Below are positions 2,008 through 11,067 of a DNA stretch of 11,067 bases, piece after piece. Location: IMG/VR virus record IMGVR_UViG_2690316002_000013, one strand, 5' to 3'. The notes beneath the pieces are model-generated. The model was not told the DNA's origin. It was given only the letters and a program-made list of their open reading frames with translations, and did no database searches. The position numbers were made by a program, and so were the translations under genes. The number at the start of each line of letters is the position of its first letter. Position 1 is the first letter of the stretch. This DNA comes from a virus. Its lineage: Duplodnaviria > Heunggongvirae > Uroviricota > Caudoviricetes.

Positions 2008-2096
2008 GATTGAGGTGGTGGACATTCTGCCCGACCGCGCATTTTTGCGCTATCGGGAATATCAAACAGTTACCGCGCCGACTTCCTCAAATTGAG

Positions 2097-2237
2097 GTTT
2101 CCGAAAATATCAGCGGGTTAGCGATTAAGCTGACGAGTAATTAAACTGCGAAAATTTCGTAGTTTGTGACTATCTGAAAGATAGTCGGTTGTTCCGGCCT
2201 CAGCCGTTGGCTGTTTCCGAAAATATCAGTAGGTTAG
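2097..2237. repeat. 26-bp direct repeat pair GTTTCCGAAAATATCAG-YR-GGTTAG (2097-2122 and 2212-2237, 24/26 identical) flanking the palindrome GACTATC-tgaaa-GATAGTC (2168-2186)
   Basis: Seen in sequence, in the non-coding stretch between phoQ and the first element gene. Confidence 0.6.
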
Positions 2238-2238
2238 G

Positions 2239-2262
2239 CCAAAGCTCAAAAATGAGCTTTGG
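2239..2262 (-). other. Perfect 10-bp inverted repeat CCAAAGCTCA-aaaa-TGAGCTTTGG, 16 bp 3' of the 93-aa gene; weak terminator or protein-binding palindrome
   Basis: Seen in sequence. No strong U-tract follows on either strand, so the terminator reading is tentative. Confidence 0.35.
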
Positions 2263-2277
2263 AACAATATCAACAAG

Positions 2278-2559
2278 TTACCGCCGTAACCGCTCCGGCT
2301 TCTTCCAGTGGTACGTAATTTTCTCCGTTTCCCGATACAGTGCCACGCGGCGATTGTAGGCCAGCATTTCAAGAACGCGGATCCGTATGTTGCGCATATC
2401 CACATCATTAAGCTGGATACCATCACGGCGCATCACCTCAGCAACAACACGCGCATAATTTTCGGCTGTCACGCTGTCCGGCTGCGTGGCCTGTTCGTCA
2501 GTCTGCTGGCTGATTCCACCAGCACGGCGGATTAATCCCAGTATTTCGGCTTCTGTCAT
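2278..2559 (-). CDS. Hypothetical small phage-type protein (93 aa), function unknown
   Basis: Intact ORF co-directional with the other element genes; its start lies about 34 bp from the cos-1 inverted-repeat arm. No family recognised by eye. Confidence 0.5.
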   Translation of the reverse strand: MTEAEILGLIRRAGGISQQTDEQATQPDSVTAENYARVVAEVMRRDGIQLNDVDMRNIRIRVLEMLAYNRRVALYRETEKITYHWKKPERLRR

Positions 2560-2592
2560 TGTGCACCCATCGTTCTGATTGTCTGGTGTCGT

Positions 2593-2795
2593 CGGGTCCT
2601 TCCTGGAATTATGGACCCGTTACGGGGCGGCGACCTCGCGGTTTTTATCTGTTTATGAAAATTTTCCGGCAAAAGTCAGATCCGTTCTTCTTCTCTGTAA
2701 CAGACTGTTTAACAATGAAAATATTAAAAAAAGAAAGGATCTGACACGAGGCATTTTAGCCAGAAAATGCCATTATCAGATCCTTTCTCATTTTT
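2593..2795 (+). other. Lambda-type cohesive-end site cos-1: cosQ-like arm, cosN (GGGCGGCGACCT, 2625-2636) and cosB with R3/R2/R1-like repeats (GATCCGTTCTTC 2679-2690; GAAAGGATCTGA 2733-2744; AGATCCTTTCTC 2778-2789)
   Basis: 2619-2700 closely follows the phage lambda left end as I recall it (GGGCGGCGACCTCGCGGGTTTTCGCTATTTATGAAAATTTTCCGG...CCGTTCTTCTTC). Orientation is cosN then cosB toward higher coordinates. Confidence 0.8.
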
Positions 2796-2815
2796 GTTCA
2801 ATAATTGCGCGTCTG

Positions 2816-3358
2816 TTACTCGCCTTTCTTCTGTAGCAACTTTTCCGGTACGTTTCCGGTTGTTTCTTTCAAGTAATCAGTCAGTATCTGTGGGAGGTTG
2901 TCGGCAACTCTGGCACTGGCATTACAGGCTTTAACCACTTCCCTTTTAAGCCTATCCAGCATGGCGGGGGTAATCTGTGGGAAGCTCCTTTGCATAGTAA
3001 GCGGGAGGCTGTCCATGATTGATGAAATCTGACTCGCCAGCTTTGAAAGCGCGTACAGGCAAAACTCAGTATCAATCACGTCACCGCGATCGCGCTCGTT
3101 TTTAAGTTCCTGCGCCTCCGCCTGTGCTGTCAGTAATCTGATCCTGACTCGTAAGAGTTCATCATCATCAATATCGCCTTTGTCGTTTGTAAGCTGGCTA
3201 ATTGCATTGTTAACCCTATTGTCTATCACGCTGGCAACATCATAAAACGCCTCACGGCCTTTACGTTCAACGGGAGTCACTCCCCACTTGTCGAACGCTG
3301 TCGCACTTACACGGCAGCTTTTCGCCATGTTTTTTTTGTTCATCAGGTGCGATTTCAT
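2816..3358 (-). CDS. Terminase small subunit, lambda Nu1 family (180 aa ORF; true start may be the internal Met at 3341-3343)
   Basis: Translation aligns by eye with lambda gpNu1: LLTAQAEAQELKNERD vs LTRAQADAQELKNARD, and TEFCLYALSKLASQISSIMDSLPLTMQRSFP vs TAFCTFVLSRIAGEIASILDGLPLSVQRRFP. Sits directly downstream of cos-2, the canonical cos-then-Nu1 arrangement. No strong Shine-Dalgarno at either candidate ATG. Confidence 0.9.
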   Translation of the reverse strand: MKSHLMNKKNMAKSCRVSATAFDKWGVTPVERKGREAFYDVASVIDNRVNNAISQLTNDKGDIDDDELLRVRIRLLTAQAEAQELKNERDRGDVIDTEFCLYALSKLASQISSIMDSLPLTMQRSFPQITPAMLDRLKREVVKACNASARVADNLPQILTDYLKETTGNVPEKLLQKKGE

Positions 3359-3534
3359 TAATACACCAACTTAATTACTGCTTCAGGTTGGTGTATTGTT
3401 TGCATCTTTCCCTTTTTATTCATAAAGATAGATCAAACAACGAAACCACCACCACCCCCCTGAAAAGGCTCATAAATAGCGAAAAACCGCTAGGTCGCCG
3501 CCCCGTAACGGGCCATAATTCCAGGAAGGACCCG
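3359..3534 (-). other. Second lambda-type cos (cos-2), inverted: cosN complement AGGTCGCCGCCC at 3492-3503, cosQ-like arm to 3534, degenerate cosB and a 9-bp-stem hairpin (3364-3397) just upstream of terS
   Basis: Reverse complement of 3485-3534 matches 2593-2641 with only two differences (one 1-bp indel, one mismatch). Similarity to cos-1 and to lambda fades inside cosB. Confidence 0.75.
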
Positions 3535-3535
3535 T

Positions 3536-3557
3536 AAAAAAGCCGGATTTCTCCGGC
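3536..3557 (-). terminator. Intrinsic terminator closing the head operon (minus strand: GCCGGA-gaaa-TCCGGC then TTTTTT)
   Basis: GC-rich 6-bp stem, 4-nt loop, U6 tract, 7 bp after the stop of the 137-aa gene. First of three near-identical copies. Confidence 0.6.
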
Positions 3558-3563
3558 CTTGTC

Positions 3564-3977
3564 TCAGATGGTTTTCAGTATGCGATCGATGTCGCCGTCA
3601 TCGCCCTGGTTTCTGCCATCGTATGCCATGCCAGCTGATACGGCTTGCGGGCTGTGCATGTCCATAAAGTTTTCAAAGGCTGCGGTAAGTTCCGGCGCAA
3701 CCTTCGGACGTTCCTGCTCTATGGTCATGCTAAGGATGCTTTTAGCCGTACCAACATCGATACAAGGCACGTTTGCCATTGCACGCAACAGCGGCTGATA
3801 GTCTTTATGCTCATGAAGCGCCATAATCGCATCAGCGCGCGGCTTGTCCTGCTCTTCCAGTTTGTTTAGTTGATATACGGCCTCATAGGTTGATAAACCT
3901 CTGTCAGCCATTGCCCGCGCTTCGACTTTAAATTTACTCGCCAGCGGTAGCGTCATGATGCTTTCATTCGTTGCCAT
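3564..3977 (-). CDS. Hypothetical protein (137 aa) between the decoration gene and cos; possible packaging or head-completion factor
   Basis: Intact ORF with strong SD (AGGGGGAA) 12 bp after the decoration gene stop. No similarity recognised to lambda FI, FII, W or Nu3 by eye. Confidence 0.65.
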   Translation of the reverse strand: MATNESIMTLPLASKFKVEARAMADRGLSTYEAVYQLNKLEEQDKPRADAIMALHEHKDYQPLLRAMANVPCIDVGTAKSILSMTIEQERPKVAPELTAAFENFMDMHSPQAVSAGMAYDGRNQGDDGDIDRILKTI

Positions 3978-5802: not shown

Positions 5803-5808
5803 GGGCGC

Positions 5809-5830
5809 AAAAAAGCCGGATTGCTCCGGC
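5809..5830 (-). terminator. Intrinsic terminator after the 74-aa gene (GCCGGA-gcaa-TCCGGC then T6 on minus strand)
   Basis: Second copy of the AAAAAAGCCGGATTKCTCCGGC module. Confidence 0.6.
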
Positions 5831-5850
5831 TATGTGTGCTGTGTGCTGGC

Positions 5851-6075: not shown

Positions 6076-6171
6076 TGTTTTTTTCCTCTGTTGTGTCTGT
6101 TTGTTTCAGATAGTAACTATGCCTGACCGTGACGAAAACCCGGTAATGCGCCATACCGTTTCAACTGGTGC

Positions 6172-6194
6172 AAAAAAAGCCGGATTTCTCCGGC
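6172..6194 (-). terminator. Intrinsic terminator after the PerC-like gene (third copy of the GCCGGA-tttc-TCCGGC module with A/T tract)
   Basis: Hairpin 6179-6194 preceded on the plus strand by A7 (U-tract on the minus strand), 8 bp after the stop. Confidence 0.6.
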
Positions 6195-6201
6195 TGTTTG
6201 A

Positions 6202-7149: not shown

Positions 7150-7345
7150 CAACCTCTCACTTTTTCGCCTCACTTTTTCAAGCGTCTCACTTCGTCGCAG
7201 TTGGGATTTTCGGTTTTTCTATGTGTGTGTTTCATAAGTATTTTTTTACCCCTCACTTTTGAGGATGTATACAGGTCGAAAAGTGAGGGAGAGCGGGCTA
7301 ATTTTGGCCCTCTTTCTATCCCCCTCGCTTTTGCTCCTCACTTTT
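7150..7345. repeat. Iteron array, candidate replication origin: about 7 copies of CTCAC(T)TTT (7156, 7169, 7186, 7252, inverted at 7279-7288, variant CTCGCTTTT at 7324, 7337) plus an AT-rich stretch (7214-7248)
   Basis: Counted directly in sequence. Includes a convergent pair CCTCACTTTT / AAAAGTGAGG around GTATAC. Lies immediately 3' of the RepA-like gene; the last iteron overlaps its stop codon. Confidence 0.6.
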
Positions 7346-8385
7346 ATAGCGGCGCTACATCATCCCCATCGATACGAATAACCCCATCTTTTTCCAGCTT
7401 GTACAGCCAGCGCCGGAAGTTTTTCATTTCATACCCCAGCTTTTTCATGTCATCACGTAACAGCGGGATCGTGCACTTGTCGCCGTTCTGTGTGCGTGAA
7501 CGGATGCACCCCCATAGCGCGGTATGGTTTTCCGTCTTGTTCCCTGCCTCCTCGATGCGCTCCAGTTCAACAGGAGGGCGCGGATCATCCACCACCACCA
7601 GCGACGTGATTAATTCACCGTCAGCGTCGGTAAAAAGCTCCACCACGCGTAAGTCATATGCGGCTTCTTTGAGTTCCTCCGCGTCCTTCATTTTGGTGCA
7701 TGAGATAACCAGCGCTTCGCTTCCTGCGTCCTCCCTGCGTATCCGGTATTCAGCATCCAGCGAAGCACGAAATGCACTGGAACCGCGCGCGCCTTTCGTC
7801 TCATCCTTGCCGGAATGGTGAACCACCAGCACCGTGGCCCCTGTGCGTCGTTTCAGTTCGTCACAACCACGGATAAACGCCCCATATCACGGGAATCATT
7901 TTCATCATTCCCACCAAAGCAACGCGCCAGCGTATCCAGAATAATCATGCGTACAGGTTTACCCGTTTCCCGCTCCACCTGACGGGCAGCGATAACCATT
8001 TCATCAACATCAAGCGGGGCAGCCGGAAAGATGGGGCGGTTTACCAGATACAGATTTTTCACCTGCTCATCGTGCACAACCTCCCAGGCTTTTACACGAC
8101 GCGGAACACCTATACCGCCTTCACCAACCACATAGAGAACCGCACCATGTGCAACCCTGCGGCCTCCCCACTGGCGACCAGTGGCAACATGGCACGCCCA
8201 CGATCCGGCAAGGAATGATTTATAGGACCCGCTAGCCCCGTATATGCTGCATAGCGATACCGCCGGAATAATCCCCTTAACCACGTAATCCAGTTGCGTG
8301 TCGTATCCGGTAGATCCAACGCTCATCGGTAGCGTGGTTTTTCGCTGGTGGTTTTTTTCTTCCGCCGGCTCTTTCCCGCGCACCC
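7344..8385 (-). pseudogene. RepA-like replicative ATPase (AAA_25/RecA-fold, DnaB-like helicase family) with C-terminal winged-helix-like domain; reading frame broken by a 1-nt frameshift near 7872-7877, 5' end running into the N gap
   Basis: Walker A GASGSYKS, Walker B-like MIILDTLA and the LVVHHSGKD motif lie in two different frames (tracks 7853..8623 and 7344..7832). One extra A in the run at 7875-7877 would give a continuous ...DMGRFIRGCDELKRRTGATVLVVHH... . A possible ATG start is at 8324-8326 but has no SD. Confidence 0.6.
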
Positions 8386-8616
8386 NNNNNNNNNNNNNNN
8401 NNNNNNNNNNNNNNNNNNNNNNNNNNNNNNNNNNNNNNNNNNNNNNNNNNNNNNNNNNNNNNNNNNNNNNNNNNNNNNNNNNNNNNNNNNNNNNNNNNNN
8501 NNNNNNNNNNNNNNNNNNNNNNNNNNNNNNNNNNNNNNNNNNNNNNNNNNNNNNNNNNNNNNNNNNNNNNNNNNNNNNNNNNNNNNNNNNNNNNNNNNNN
8601 NNNNNNNNNNNNNNNN
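8386..8616. other. Assembly gap (231 N)
   Basis: Run of n characters. Truncates the RepA-like gene on one side and the pin gene on the other. Confidence 0.99.
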
Positions 8617-9063
8617 GGTACAAAGTCCGAAAGGCCGGGACTGAAAAAACTGCTCAGGACATTATCGGCAGGTGACACGCTGGTGGTCTGGAAACTGGAC
8701 CGGCTGGGGCGCAGTATGCGGCATCTTGTCGTGCTGGTGGAGGAGTTGCGCGAACGAGGCATCAACTTTCGTAGTCTGACGGATTCAATTGATACCAGTA
8801 CCCCAATGGGGCGCTTTTTCTTTCATGTGATGGGTGCCCTGGCTGAAATGGAGCGTGAACTGATTGTTGAAAGAACAAAAGCTGGACTGGAAGCTGCTCG
8901 CGCACAGGGACGAATTGGTGGACGTCGTCCCAAACTTACACCAGAACAATGGGAACAGGCCGGACGATTAATTGCATCAGGAGTTCCTCGCCAGAAGGTG
9001 GCGATTATCTATGATGTTGGTGTGTCAACTTTGTATAAGAGGTTTCCTGCAGGGGATAAATAA
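8617..9063 (+). CDS. pin: Serine recombinase / DNA invertase of the Pin-Gin-Hin-Cin family, 3' part only (N-terminal ~35-40 codons lost in the gap)
   Basis: In-frame translation from 8617 reads GTKSERPGLKKLLRTLSAGDTLVVWKLDRLGRSMRHL...FFFHVMGALAEMERELIVERT...GRIGGRRPKLT..., closely matching e14 Pin as I recall it. Followed by mcrA as in e14. Confidence 0.9.
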   Translation, partial: GTKSERPGLKKLLRTLSAGDTLVVWKLDRLGRSMRHLVVLVEELRERGINFRSLTDSIDTSTPMGRFFFHVMGALAEMERELIVERTKAGLEAARAQGRIGGRRPKLTPEQWEQAGRLIASGVPRQKVAIIYDVGVSTLYKRFPAGDK

Positions 9064-9169
9064 AGTTAAAGACACTTTGTGTACAAAAGAAAGTAAAACA
9101 ACAGCAACTTGTTGCAATTTTATCAATAAAAGTAGTATTGTCGTGAAAAATTGATTAAAGATTAATATT

Positions 9170-10003
9170 ATGCATGTTTTTGATAATAATGGAATTGAAC
9201 TGAAAGCTGAGTGTTCGATAGGTGAAGAGGATGGTGTTTATGGTCTAATCCTTGAGTCGTGGGGGCCGGGTGACAGAAACAAAGATTACAATATCGCTCT
9301 TGATTATATCATTGAACGGTTGGTTGATTCTGGTGTATCCCAAGTCGTAGTATATCTGGCGTCATCATCAGTCAGAAAACATATGCATTCTTTGGATGAA
9401 AGAAAAATCCATCCTGGTGAATATTTTACTTTGATTGGTAATAGCCCCCGCGAGATACGCTTGAAGATGTGTGGTTATCAGGCTTATTTTAGTCGTACGG
9501 GGAGAAAGGAAATTCCTTCCGGCAATAGAACGAAACGAATATTGATAAATGTTCCAGGTATTTATAGTGACAGTTTTTGGGCGTCTATAATACGTGGAGA
9601 ACTATCAGAGCTTTCACAGCCTACAGATGATGAATCGCTTCTGAATATGAGGGTTAGTAAATTAATTAAGAAAACGTTGGGTCAACCCGAGGGCTCCAGG
9701 AAACCAGTTGAGGTAGAAAGACTACAAAAAGTTTATGTCCGAGACCCGATGGTAAAAGCTTGGATTTTACAGCAAAGTAAAGGTATATGTGAAAACTGTG
9801 GTAAAAATGCTCCGTTTTATTTAAATGATGGAAACCCATATTTGGAAGTGCATCATGTAATTCCCCTGTCTTCAGGTGGTGCTGATACAACAGATAACTG
9901 TGTTGCCCTTTGTCCGAATTGTCATAGAGAATTGCACTATAGTAAAAATGCAAAAGAACTAATCGAGATGCTTTACGTTAATATAAACCGATTACAGAAA
10001 TAA
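9170..10003 (+). CDS. mcrA: 5-methylcytosine-specific (type IV) restriction endonuclease McrA, HNH family, 277 aa
   Basis: Translation matches my recollection of E. coli K-12 McrA along its whole length; C-terminal HNH/zinc motif (CENCG...HHVIPLSSGG...CPNCH). AT-rich gene typical of horizontally acquired DNA. Confidence 0.95.
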   Translation: MHVFDNNGIELKAECSIGEEDGVYGLILESWGPGDRNKDYNIALDYIIERLVDSGVSQVVVYLASSSVRKHMHSLDERKIHPGEYFTLIGNSPREIRLKMCGYQAYFSRTGRKEIPSGNRTKRILINVPGIYSDSFWASIIRGELSELSQPTDDESLLNMRVSKLIKKTLGQPEGSRKPVEVERLQKVYVRDPMVKAWILQQSKGICENCGKNAPFYLNDGNPYLEVHHVIPLSSGGADTTDNCVALCPNCHRELHYSKNAKELIEMLYVNINRLQK

Positions 10004-10141
10004 AATTGTTTATTAAAGTCACATTTAAGACGTAATACCCTACAGGGTAAAAATTTTCTCTGATCTTAACTTCTGCAAATGTTAACTGCTATTTTTATGC
10101 TAAAAATGGTTATCAAAACTCAAAAACACATGTTTATAATC

Positions 10142-10178
10142 AATGAGTTATAGAAATGCTAAGGGCTAATGAGTTATA
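10142..10178. repeat. Direct repeat AATGAGTTATA x2 (10142-10152, 10168-10178) in the AT-rich arm upstream of the icdC core
   Basis: Seen in sequence. Its position 60-100 bp from the icd homology boundary would suit arm-type binding sites of an att site. Confidence 0.4.
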
Positions 10179-10236
10179 TGCAAATTAGTAAAATTATGTT
10201 GCTATCTCAAATAGTTACGATTTAGTCATCTAACTA

Positions 10237-10401
10237 ATGCTGCGCCATATGGGCTGGACTGAAGCCGCAGACCTGATTGTTAAAGGTATGGAAGGCGCAA
10301 TCAACGCCAAGACCGTAACCTATGACTTCGAACGTCTGATGGAAGGCGCTAAACTGCTGAAATGTTCAGAGTTTGGTGACGCGATCATCAAAAATATGTA
10401 A
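10237..10401 (+). pseudogene. icdC: Duplicated 3' end of isocitrate dehydrogenase gene (icdC-type fragment, 54 codons), marking an e14-type attachment site
   Basis: Translation [54 protein letters not shown] is the Icd C-terminus with two substitutions relative to the host sequence I recall (D to E, E to K). No upstream icd body is present. Confidence 0.85.
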
Positions 10402-10424
10402 TTACCACATGTGTTAAATATTAT

Positions 10425-10453
10425 AACGGGCGTATAACACGCCCGTTGTTTTT
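10425..10453 (+). terminator. Intrinsic terminator after the icd 3' fragment (AACGGGCGT-ataac-ACGCCCGTT then T5)
   Basis: 9-bp GC-rich stem and U-tract 24 bp after the stop codon. Confidence 0.65.
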
Positions 10454-10662
10454 ATAAATATGTTAACCGTTATAAAATAACGTATCAAAAGTCAAGTGAA
10501 CACATTTCAAATATCAATTTGATCGTATTGGTCTGGTGATTATTTATGGGGAGCAATAAAAAGACAGTATTAATCATCCATAGGGATAGTCTCTGCACTT
10601 TTATTTCCATTATGCTAATGCCTTACTGAATTATGAAGCATTTTTTAAGCTCCCAACTTTAG

Positions 10663-11067
10663 CTAGATTAATGGTTTATTATTTTCTACATCTTCAATAT
10701 ATAAAAGCGTATTATCAATGGCGTAGTAACTGCGTTTGTTATGATTAACATCAGTAACCCACCGGAAAACGCCAGCGCCTGCCAGTGTTGAACAGTATTC
10801 CCGAAATGTAGATTTTCCGCGAATATGAAGCAATGCGGCCTCTTTTATTTTAGCTGGGTTCTTGGTCGTACTAACTTTTAACAGGTTCCTGGTTCCTCTT
10901 AATAACAAAACCGTGTCATCGTGAGTAATAATTCTGATGTTATCCGTAGCCAGATAATAAATGTAATGTGCAATACGGTGATGTTTTAATTCTGAATAAA
11001 ACCAGGAGAAGTTTTGCTCTTTTCTCACTTGCTCAAACATCTTTTGAAAAACAACGACCTGATCCAT
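10663..11067 (-). CDS. ycgX: 134-aa hypothetical protein, probably the DUF1398-family protein YcgX by position and length
   Basis: Complete ORF whose start codon is the last three bases of the window. Assignment rests on remembered K-12 synteny (mcrA-icdC-[iraM]-ycgX) and the matching 134-aa length, not on recognising the sequence. Confidence 0.55.
   Translation of the reverse strand: MDQVVVFQKMFEQVRKEQNFSWFYSELKHHRIAHYIYYLATDNIRIITHDDTVLLLRGTRNLLKVSTTKNPAKIKEAALLHIRGKSTFREYCSTLAGAGVFRWVTDVNHNKRSYYAIDNTLLYIEDVENNKPLI

What the first reader, a model, noticed from the sequence alone, without database searches (positions are those of the whole stretch)
2593..3534. Two lambda-type cos sites in inverted orientation bracketing the small terminase gene
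cosN GGGCGGCGACCT occurs at 2625-2636 on the plus strand and as its complement at 3492-3503, each inside a ~49-bp arm (2593-2641 vs 3485-3534) that is a near-perfect inverted repeat of the other. cos-2 sits in the canonical position upstream of terS; cos-1 lies just past the terS stop, pointing the other way. If lambda rules apply (DNA on the cosB side is packaged first), the two sites would start packaging in opposite directions and neither would act as a terminal cos for the other. Recombination between the arms would also flip the terS cassette. I do not know a described lambdoid element with this layout. If packaging starts in situ, cos-2 would drive it leftward across the junction into phoQ.
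Basis: partly seen in the sequence, partly recalled or inferred. Interest (0 to 1): 0.8.

Follow-up and report, generated by a model that had tools for sequence, protein, structure and literature searches.

The report
Two facing cos sites in a phage satellite
The two inverted lambda-type cos sites are real, but they are the packaging module of a known kind of E. coli phage satellite (the EcCICFT073 family of PICIs, whose "cos1" and "cos2" were published in 2018-2019), here in a version that carries its own small terminase instead of RppA.

Summary
cosN GGGCGGCGACCT lies at 2625-2636 (+) and 3492-3503 (-), inside 77/76-nt inverted arms (2593-2669 and 3459-3534) that bracket a Nu1-family terS (2816-3358, -).

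It is neither an artefact nor a new layout. The window holds a phage-inducible chromosomal island (PICI) at the roxA-phoQ site. The model PICI EcCICFT073 sits at the same site with the same gene order. Its published cos1 and cos2 flank rppA in the same convergent arrangement.

What I add:
- The cos next to the terS start has a satellite-private cosB that co-varies with the cassette gene (TerS or RppA).
- The other cos is a complete phage-type cosB. Its R3/R2/R1 cores sit at the same positions as in real lambdoid phages. It is swapped among at least three phage cosB types and is missing from many relatives.
- The cassette occurs in both orientations in closed genomes: TerS type 5 flipped versus 484 native, RppA type 24 versus 68.

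Most likely function (inferred): two packaging signals of different specificity, one private and one helper-type, kept convergent. The identification is secure; the function of the second cos is not. Moderate interest; a new member of a known kind.

The parts
2593..2669 (+). Left arm of the inverted repeat: cosQ-like (2593-2624), cosN (2625-2636) and an I2-like stretch (2637-2669). This cos points rightward. It corresponds in position to EcCICFT073 'cos2'.
   Evidence: The arm aligns to lambda cosQ-cosN-I2. The homologous site in CFT073 is at L006 18263-18339.
2670..2800 (+). Phage-type cosB of the left cos: R3 (2675-2692), R2 (2728-2745, inverted) and R1 (2776-2794), with core AGATCC/GGATCT.
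   Evidence: The R elements appear as inverted repeats I8 and I12. The cores lie at +53, +112 and +153 from cosN, the same positions as in genuine lambdoid phage contigs where a forward Nu1-type terS starts at +182. Similarity to phages ends just after R1. In terS-sense RNA, R2/R1 fold as a hairpin followed by U7 (-41.7 kcal/mol, z -6.3).
2816..3358 (-). Satellite-encoded small terminase (180 aa, Nu1 family), with no terL after it.
   Evidence: The closest phage TerS is N15 gp1 at 46% identity. All 76 IMG/VR relatives lie in satellite context (ORF93 downstream in nearly all) and none is followed by a terL-sized ORF.
3359..3458 (-). Satellite-private cosB ('cosX') between cosN and the terS start. 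It has a G-run plus GGTGGTGGTGG (3441-3460 on +) and an inverted repeat ACACCAAC/GTTGGTGT (3363-3370 and 3387-3394).
   Evidence: It has no DNA match in phage genomes beyond the arm. It always accompanies TerS, whereas RppA cassettes carry a different cosB (GGTGACACCACCACCAC).
3459..3534 (-). Right arm of the inverted repeat: I2-like stretch, cosN (3492-3503 on the minus strand) and cosQ-like. This cos points leftward through terS toward phoQ. It corresponds in position to EcCICFT073 'cos1'.
   Evidence: The homologous site in CFT073 is at L006 17529-17605, directly upstream of rppA (Fig. S1A of PMC6739421 read).
3536..3562 (-). GC hairpin plus T-run (GGCCGGAGAAATCCGGCTTTTTT on the minus strand) after the 137-aa gene. 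It looks like a terminator and sits immediately before cosQ.
   Evidence: Read directly from the sequence. It is one of three copies of this hairpin in the island (family D1). The consensus scan did not flag it.
3564..3977 (-). Conserved 137-aa gene flanking the cassette on the capsid side (equivalent of EcCICFT073 c1501). Used as the anchor for the survey.
   Evidence: It matches PHROG 1999, with weaker similarity to the C-terminal part of head maturation protease (phrog_53, E=6e-9).
2278..2559 (-). Conserved 93-aa gene flanking the cassette on the phoQ side; function unknown.
   Evidence: It matches PHROG 1561 and has no Pfam match.

Best explanation
The region is the packaging module of an EcCICFT073-family cos-type PICI (a phage satellite) integrated between roxA and phoQ. 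A 0.94-kb cassette is bounded by two convergent cos sites that share the cosQ-cosN-I2 arm but differ in cosB.

The cos at 3359-3534 corresponds to published 'cos1'. Its cosB is private to the satellite and always travels with the specificity protein encoded next to it. Here that protein is a full-length Nu1-type TerS; in CFT073 it is RppA. Inferred step: the satellite TerS recruits the helper's TerL to this site and packages leftward.

The cos at 2593-2800 corresponds to 'cos2'. It is a complete copy of a lambdoid phage cos with AGATCC-type R3/R2/R1. Inferred step: an unmodified helper terminase of matching specificity can use it and packages rightward.

So the satellite carries two packaging signals of different specificity, which widens the range of usable helpers. 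Two further inferences follow from the convergent orientation. Under lambda rules, neither site can terminate packaging started at the other. Recombination between the arms can only invert the cassette, not delete it. Inversions have in fact happened repeatedly in nature.
For: Identity of the element:
- Same chromosomal site and same gene order as EcCICFT073: int, alpA-like HTH, replication genes, SSB, PerC, capsid, decoration, 137-aa gene, cassette, 93-aa gene.
- CFT073 has cosN at L006 17559(+) and 18298(-), with 77-nt inverted arms around rppA.
- These are the published cos1 and cos2, whose sequences are in Fig. S1A of PMC6739421.

Experimental results for CFT073, taken from the papers:
- Both cos sites allow plasmid transduction.
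- cos1 is needed for island transfer, and its cosB is what RppA-TerS recognises.
- Deleting cos2 raises transfer. This is what mutual interference between convergent sites would predict.

The cosB beside the gene start is private:
- It strictly co-varies with the cassette gene in 80 IMG/VR loci and in closed genomes.
- It has no phage DNA match.

The second cosB is phage-type:
- 34 of 44 IMG/VR matches to cosN plus the AGATCC-type R3 are lambdoid phages with a forward terS at +182.
- Their R3/R2/R1 cores are at the same positions as in the window.
- TerS cassettes carry at least three different phage-type cosBs. One resembles the cosB of CFT073's natural helper prophage. In every case, similarity between cassettes resumes at the same point after R1.

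Inversion:
- Exact arm-to-arm reversal in L007 and L008, and a reversed rppA in L255.
- The identical TerS protein (WP_047090823.1) occurs in native and flipped states.
- The identical RppA protein (WP_000565609.1) also occurs in both states.
- Counts are 5 flipped versus 484 native for TerS, and 24 versus 68 for RppA.
Against: - No experiment exists for this TerS-type island. Binding of its TerS to the private cosB is inferred only from co-variation.
- In CFT073, deleting cos2 improved transfer with lambda and phi80, so the second cos can be a cost.
- The second cos is dispensable. At least 21 of about 76 TerS-type relatives lack it, with the TerS stop followed directly by ORF93.
- Satellites with an AGATCC-type second cos never shared an IMG genome id with an AGATCC-type phage contig (0 of 9, comparing ids). 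There is therefore no sign of matching to a resident helper.
- The advantage of the convergent orientation is argued from lambda biology and from general recombination logic. It was not tested here.
Confidence: 0.6

Rival explanations
1. The second cos (2593-2800) has no adaptive role. It is a by-product of recombination between the satellite and phage cos regions, and persists because losing it is nearly neutral.
For: Many relatives lack it. Gene-less, decayed cassettes still keep two cos sites in either orientation, 5 flipped versus 4 native. Deleting cos2 in EcCICFT073 increased transfer (PMC6092414). There is no co-residence with matching phages (0 of 9).
Against: All three R cores are intact and at exact phage positions. 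At least three distinct complete phage-type cosBs have been swapped into the same slot with a fixed inner boundary, which suggests repeated acquisition of whole functional sites rather than decay. The cloned cos2 of CFT073 is functional for transduction (PMC6092414).
Confidence: 0.25
2. The second cos acts mainly against the helper or as a regulator. It could be a decoy that titrates helper terminase. Alternatively, its R2/R1 hairpin could act as the transcription terminator of terS.
For: In terS-sense RNA the R2/R1 inverted repeat folds at -41.7 kcal/mol (z -6.3) and is followed by U7. PICIs of this family interfere with helper packaging (PMC6739421).
Against: The hairpin is an intrinsic property of any lambda-type cosB. 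Single-cos relatives have terS followed directly by the next gene, with no such element. A decoy would not need an intact cosQ and cosN in a precise arm.
Confidence: 0.08
3. The cassette is a programmed invertible switch, like Gin/Hin/Pin segments, that toggles terS expression or packaging direction.
For: Both orientations exist in nature with identical proteins. A terminator-like hairpin precedes the cassette, so the cassette may carry its own promoter.
Against: No invertase is encoded in the complete homologous islands. The pin fragment at 8683-9063 lies beyond an N-gap, in e14-like DNA. The repeats are the cos sites themselves. Flips are rare for the TerS type (5 versus 484), and the flipped RppA hits listed share one identity value, which suggests clonal inheritance. 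All four CFT073 assemblies in the collection are in the native orientation.
Confidence: 0.03
4. One cos copy is an assembly artefact, either a collapsed or a chimeric repeat.
For: The window contains an N-run (8386-8616) and a junction seen in no complete genome. So this assembly is not flawless.
Against: The identical two-cos structure is present in hundreds of closed genomes and in about 50 of the 80 anchor-derived IMG/VR contigs.
Confidence: 0.01

Closest known systems
EcCICFT073 (E. coli CFT073 PICI) with its cos1 and cos2 sites and RppA (Fillol-Salom et al. 2018, PMC6092414; 2019, PMC6739421)
   Same: The integration site (roxA-phoQ) and the flanking genes are the same, at 94-95% DNA identity up to the inner ends of the arms. 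Both have two convergent cos sites with ~77-nt arms. In both, the cos next to the gene start has a non-phage cosB, and the distal cos has repeated R-like elements.
   Different: The cassette gene here is a 180-aa full-length Nu1-type TerS, including the C-terminal region that aligns with Nu1's C-terminal part. In CFT073 it is the 144-aa RppA, which matches TerS profiles only over its DNA-binding domain. Both cosB sequences differ from those of CFT073. Neither paper's text mentions the inverted orientation or inversion of the cassette.
Bacteriophage lambda cos (cosQ-cosN-cosB) and Nu1
   Same: cosN is identical and the cosQ/I2 arm is very similar. The left cos has the lambda R3 -> / R2 <- / R1 -> architecture at lambda-like spacing. 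TerS is 35% identical to Nu1.
   Different: There are two sites, in convergent orientation. The R cores are AGATCC, where lambda has GTTTCC. The site upstream of terS lacks R elements. There is no terL and there are no other phage genes.
TerS-encoding Gram-negative PICIs mentioned in 2018 (islands of E. coli IHE3034 and 18098)
   Same: These are E. coli PICIs that carry a terS homologue (PMC6092414).
   Different: Those islands transferred poorly or not at all in the published tests, and their cos sites were not described. I did not verify that they carry this same cassette.
SaPIbov4 and SaPIbov5 (cos-type staphylococcal PICIs)
   Same: They are satellites packaged through a helper-type cos. 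SaPIbov4 is said to have two putative cos sites (PMC6092414).
   Different: They are an unrelated lineage with HNH-dependent cos phages as helpers. The orientation and specificity of their sites were not examined here.

Membership tests
EcCICFT073-type Gram-negative cos PICI | Integration at a PICI-specific att site not used by prophages | tested here: met
   The window runs from the phoQ stop (1461) directly into the island. Homologous islands lie between roxA and phoQ, as EcCICFT073 does.
EcCICFT073-type Gram-negative cos PICI | Gene set and order (int, alpA, pri/rep, accessory and morphogenetic genes), about 10-20 kb, transcribed in one direction | tested here: inconclusive
   This is met in the complete homologues L001 and L002. 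The window itself shows only the distal half (RepA helicase fragment, SSB, PerC, capsid, decoration, cassette). It breaks at the N-run 8386-8616, so int and alpA are not in the window.
EcCICFT073-type Gram-negative cos PICI | No terL, tail or lysis genes | tested here: met
   See the annotation of L001, L002 and L006 and the Pfam scan of the window ORFs. No long ORF follows TerS in 76 relatives.
EcCICFT073-type Gram-negative cos PICI | Carries cos with helper-like cosQ and cosN | tested here: met
EcCICFT073-type Gram-negative cos PICI | Helper-phage-dependent induction, packaging and high-frequency transfer | not testable with these tools
   This requires induction and transduction experiments.
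Lambda-type cos site | 12-nt cosN with adjacent cosQ and I2 | tested here: met
   Both sites meet this.
Lambda-type cos site | cosB with three R elements in R3 -> / R2 <- / R1 -> arrangement | tested here: met
   This verdict is for the cos at 2625-2636, which meets the feature. The cos at 3492-3503 does not meet it: its cosB has no R elements.
Lambda-type cos site | Nicked by terminase; forms the ends of virion DNA | not testable with these tools
   This has been shown only for the cloned cos1 and cos2 of EcCICFT073, by transduction assays (PMC6092414).
Nu1-family small terminase | Sequence membership over the full length | tested here: met
   Pfam PF07471 scores 83 bits against a cut-off of 30, over residues 33-148. 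PHROG 57 matches residues 1-174. BLASTP gives 35% identity to Nu1 over residues 6-166.
Nu1-family small terminase | N-terminal winged helix-turn-helix that binds cosB | tested here: inconclusive
   The N-terminus aligns to the Nu1 DNA-binding domain only with gaps. No PDB chain matched by sequence. No structure was predicted.
Rpp (redirecting phage packaging) proteins | 144-153 aa; a TerS-like DNA-binding domain plus a dimerisation domain; homology to RppA, RppB or RppC | tested here: not met
   tblastn separates the loci cleanly into TerS and RppA classes. The window protein is a full-length TerS homologue.
Site-specific invertible segments (Gin/Hin/Pin type) | A dedicated invertase next to short crossover sites | tested here: not met
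   There is no recombinase in the complete islands other than the distal tyrosine integrase. The repeats are the cos arms themselves.

The most novel reading that the evidence does not exclude
The convergent cos pair makes the specificity module (cosB, terS or rpp, cosB) a terminase-excisable cassette. Cutting both cosN sites would release a fragment with two identical 5' overhangs. It would also leave a backbone with the two complementary overhangs. The cassette could then religate in either orientation, or into any other satellite or phage that shares cosN. This would be a recombinase-independent route. It could explain two things seen here: the arm-to-arm inversions, and the mosaic swapping of cassettes and cosB types among islands. 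My data show that the inner part of each arm stays with its own cosB after inversion. That fits a break at or outside cosN. It fits equally well with ordinary homologous recombination in the 44-bp outer arm.
Probability: 0.1. Interest if true: 0.7.

Novelty: new member of a known kind. Interest (0 to 1): 0.38.

Why it matters
PICIs of this family are common in pathogenic and commensal E. coli, including O157:H7, CFT073 and Nissle 1917. They move virulence regulators and defence genes at high frequency.

The authors who described them asked why some PICIs carry two different cos sites. The comparative picture here turns that into testable predictions: one private cosB tied to the cassette protein, and one swappable cosB of true phage type. 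The second site should work with helpers whose cosB matches it. The two sites should interfere with each other when both are active.

The survey also shows that the cassette flips in nature. This matters for anyone engineering these islands as delivery vehicles or interpreting assemblies of this locus.

Tried and rejected
- **Species-wide survey.** A scan of genome contigs with the 137-aa anchor protein confirmed nothing. I used IMG/VR instead.
- **PDB sequence search with TerS.** It gave only noise. Neither the Nu1 DNA-binding domain nor RppC was found.
- **Promoter and terminator scan of 2200-3650.** Results were at shuffle level, and it missed the obvious hairpin at 3536-3562. I make no claim about a promoter inside the cassette.
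- **Rfam on the whole window.** No family matched.
- **In-situ cos-to-cos packaging of phoPQ.** A lambdoid prophage at icd has a cos in the same orientation as the terS/rpp-proximal cos. The distance is 37.2 kb in CFT073 but 21.7 kb in O157:H7 TR01. There is no conserved, packageable spacing. I rejected this as a general mechanism.
- **Matching of the second cosB to a resident prophage.** 0 of 9 AGATCC-type satellites share an IMG genome id with an AGATCC-type phage contig. This is weak, because the sample is small and prophage calling is incomplete.
- **A phage origin for the TerS cassette.** No phage in INPHARED exceeds 46% identity to TerS. No IMG/VR relative has terL after it.
- **Literature.** Only the 2018 and 2019 papers mention cos2. 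No text on cos sites in opposite orientation in satellites was found.
Full report
**1. The observation**

The 12-mer GGGCGGCGACCT occurs exactly twice in the window, at 2625-2636 on the plus strand and 3492-3503 on the minus strand. Chance expectation is 0.07.

The arms span 2593-2669 and 3459-3534 (77 and 76 nt), with 68 of 77 aligned positions identical and one single-base indel. Similarity stops sharply at both ends of the arms. Each arm aligns to lambda cosQ-cosN-I2.

Between the arms lies a 180-aa ORF (2816-3358, minus strand). It is a full-length Nu1 homologue:
- 35% identity to lambda Nu1 over the whole length;
- Pfam PF07471, E=2.4e-23;
- PHROG 57, matching residues 1-174.

**2. What the element is**

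phoQ occupies 1-1461. To its right every gene is on the minus strand:
- a 93-aa ORF;
- terS;
- a 137-aa ORF;
- a gpD-like decoration protein;
- a gpE-like capsid protein;
- PerC;
- SSB;
- a RepA helicase fragment.

The same block lies between phoQ and roxA in 361 of 5,426 complete E. coli genomes. There it continues to an AlpA-like regulator and a tyrosine integrase, with no terL, tail or lysis genes. That is the organisation of a Gram-negative phage-inducible chromosomal island (PICI).

The model PICI EcCICFT073 sits at exactly this site in strain CFT073, with the same gene order. CFT073 has cosN at L006 17559(+) and 18298(-), inside 77-nt inverted arms that flank rppA (17660-18094). Those are the published cos1 and cos2 (Fig. 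S1A of PMC6739421).

The flanks of the window align to CFT073 at 94-95% identity up to the inner ends of the arms. Everything between the arms is different. So the window holds an allelic cassette: terS in place of rppA, bracketed in the same way.

**3. What is already known about the pair**

For EcCICFT073 the papers report the following (PMC6092414; PMC6739421):
- Both sites, cloned on a plasmid, allow transduction by lambda and phi80.
- cos1 is required for island transfer.
- The RppA-TerS heterocomplex recognises the cosB of cos1.
- Deleting cos2 increases transfer.

[quoted passage not shown] No other paper in the library discusses cos2.

**4. The two sites are not equivalent**

The left cos has a complete lambda-architecture cosB:
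- R3 at 2675-2692;
- R2 at 2728-2745, inverted;
- R1 at 2776-2794.

The R cores are AGATCC, where lambda has GTTTCC.

I scanned IMG/VR for cosN followed by this R3 and obtained 44 loci. About ten are satellites. The other 34 are lambdoid phage contigs in which a forward Nu1-type terS starts at +182. In both groups the R3/R2/R1 cores lie at +53, +112 and +153, as in the window. Similarity to the phages ends just after R1, where the phage terS would begin.

The cosB on the other side (3359-3458) has no R elements. It has a G-run followed by GGTGGTGGTGG, and an ACACCAAC/GTTGGTGT inverted repeat just before the terS start. Beyond the arm it has no match in phage genomes.

**5. Survey of relatives**

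I used the 137-aa gene as an anchor outside the cassette and retrieved 80 IMG/VR loci. Searches gave these results.

- *Two convergent cos sites are the majority state.* There are 23 TerS cassettes, 19 RppA cassettes and about 10 gene-less decayed cassettes.
- *The cosB beside the gene start always goes with the gene.* TerS has the G-run/GGTGG type. RppA has GGTGACACCACCACCAC.
- *The distal cosB varies independently of the gene.* TerS cassettes carry one of at least three types:
  - the AGATCC type;
  - a CATGTCGG.../AAGAAACGACACGG/CATGTCGTTTCTC type, also present in E. coli Nissle 1917;
  - a type resembling the cosB of the CFT073 helper prophage (L072 versus CFT "phage 4").
- *All three types share one inner boundary* (TTTTGTTCAATAATTGCGCG).
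- *The distal cos is dispensable.* In a TerS-anchored set of 76 loci, 29 have it and at least 21 do not. None has terL after TerS.

**6. The cassette inverts in nature**

I built a chimeric query joining the left flank and arm to the reverse complement of the interior. It was covered completely in 5 complete genomes. The native junction was covered in 484.

In two of the five genomes, window 2593-3534 maps reversed exactly from arm to arm, while both flanks keep their orientation. The identical TerS protein (WP_047090823.1) occurs in the native state in L001 and in the flipped state in L007.

For the RppA cassette the counts are 24 flipped and 68 native. In strain WP4-S17-ESBL-08 the island is at the same roxA-phoQ site, and an RppA identical to that of CFT073 is encoded on the opposite strand. 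Gene-less cassettes are split 5 flipped to 4 native.

Two caveats apply.
- The flipped RppA hits listed share one identity value, so they may be a single clone.
- All four CFT073 assemblies in the collection are in the native orientation.

This looks like occasional recombination rather than a fast switch. After inversion, the inner third of each arm stays with its own cosB. The exchange point therefore lies at or outside cosN.

**7. How it most likely works**

*Shown:* the anatomy, the homology to cos1 and cos2, the phage-type nature of one cosB, the co-variation of the other cosB with the cassette gene, and the inversions.

*Taken from the literature on EcCICFT073:* both sites can function, the gene-proximal one is the island's main packaging site, and the second one lowers transfer with lambda and phi80.

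*Inferred:*
- The island's TerS binds the private cosB and recruits helper TerL there.
- A helper terminase with AGATCC specificity can use the second site.
- Because lambda packaging runs from cosN toward cosB and termination needs cosQ in the right orientation (established lambda biology, not tested here), the two sites package in opposite directions and cannot terminate for each other.
- If both sites are cut on one molecule, each run would end after about 0.9 kb. This would explain why deleting cos2 helped in CFT073.
- Inverted repeats allow inversion of the cassette but not its deletion.

I put 0.6 on this dual-specificity model as a whole. The identification as the cos1/cos2 module of an EcCICFT073-family PICI is close to certain.

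**8. Rivals**

- *Neutral relic of recombination with phage cos regions (0.25).* This fits the frequent absence of the second cos and the CFT073 deletion result. It fits less well with the intact R cores at precise phage positions, and with the repeated replacement of the whole cosB by other complete types.
- *Decoy or terminator role (0.08).* The R2/R1 hairpin plus U7 in terS-sense RNA folds at -41.7 kcal/mol, z -6.3. That hairpin is, however, a built-in property of lambda-type cosB.
- *Programmed invertase switch (0.03).* No invertase is encoded in the complete islands.
- *Assembly artefact (0.01).* This is excluded by hundreds of closed genomes.

**9. Comparison and novelty**

The layout is published for EcCICFT073, and TerS-encoding E. 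coli PICIs were noted in 2018. This is therefore a new member of a known kind.

I found three points not stated in the searchable literature:
- the convergent orientation of the two sites;
- the natural inversion of the cassette;
- the finding that the second cosB is a swappable, bona fide phage-type site.

They bear on an open question raised by the original authors. They remain comparative inferences without experiment.

Noticed in passing
window 8386-8616 and 8617-11067: A 231-base N-run interrupts the island's RepA helicase gene. Beyond it the sequence is e14-like: the C-terminal part of a Pin invertase (8683-9063), McrA (9170-10003), and a YcgX-like ORF by my recollection (10663-11067, not checked with any tool). 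No complete E. coli genome has this junction (0 records cover 80% of 7300-9200). It is therefore a scaffold gap, a masked insertion or a rearrangement, and the island's int/alpA half is missing from the window.
   Followed up: partly
L006 17559 (+) and L005 34745 (+) in CFT073; L002 10876 and L256 11818 in O157:H7 TR01: A lambdoid prophage at icd carries a cos in the same orientation as the island's gene-proximal cos. The distance is 37.2 kb in CFT073, where that prophage is the island's natural helper, and 21.7 kb in TR01. In CFT073 this is near the lower size limit for lambda-type packaging (from my own knowledge of lambda). A cos-to-cos fragment carrying phoPQ-purB-icd is therefore conceivable there, but the spacing is not conserved.
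   Followed up: partly
window 3564-3977 (-): The conserved 137-aa protein next to the cassette resembles the C-terminal part of phage head maturation protease (phrog_53 positions 496-567, E=6e-9). From my own knowledge of lambda, that region corresponds to the Nu3-type scaffold domain. Together with the gpE-like and gpD-like genes, this suggests the island may encode a scaffold-like protein.
   Followed up: no
L068, L070, L071, L075, L090 (IMG/VR), about 60-400 nt after the anchor gene: Some relatives have no cassette. Instead they have a degenerate cosN (GGGCGGGAGCGG...), then a TGTCCGG-type R-element cosB, then a short ORF beginning VATQTEVARHLSLTDRQLRRLQK (helix-turn-helix-like), and then the 93-aa gene. 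L089 has the same cosB followed by a hybrid of that N-terminus with the RppA C-terminus, and an inverted non-R cos after it.
   Followed up: partly
L296-L308 (IMG/VR), several in contigs of 33-60 kb: These are TerS homologues (90% identity, residues 1-174) with the 93-aa gene downstream. Most have no detectable cosN core within 400 nt upstream of TerS, and none has a second, inverted cos downstream. They may be satellites embedded in prophages, or they may use a different cos.
   Followed up: no
window 3533-3562, 5806-5835, 6170-6199: There are three copies of the same terminator-like hairpin (AAAAAAGCCGGATTTCTCCGGC on the plus strand), placed after successive gene blocks of the island.
   Followed up: no
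window 2058-2284: Two pairs of direct repeats lie between phoQ and the 93-aa gene: 2097-2121 with 2213-2237 (25 nt, 92%), and 2058-2076 with 2266-2284 (19 nt, 89%). They are near the expected attachment junction. This stretch is also where most E. coli relatives differ from the window (88% versus 96% coverage).
   Followed up: no
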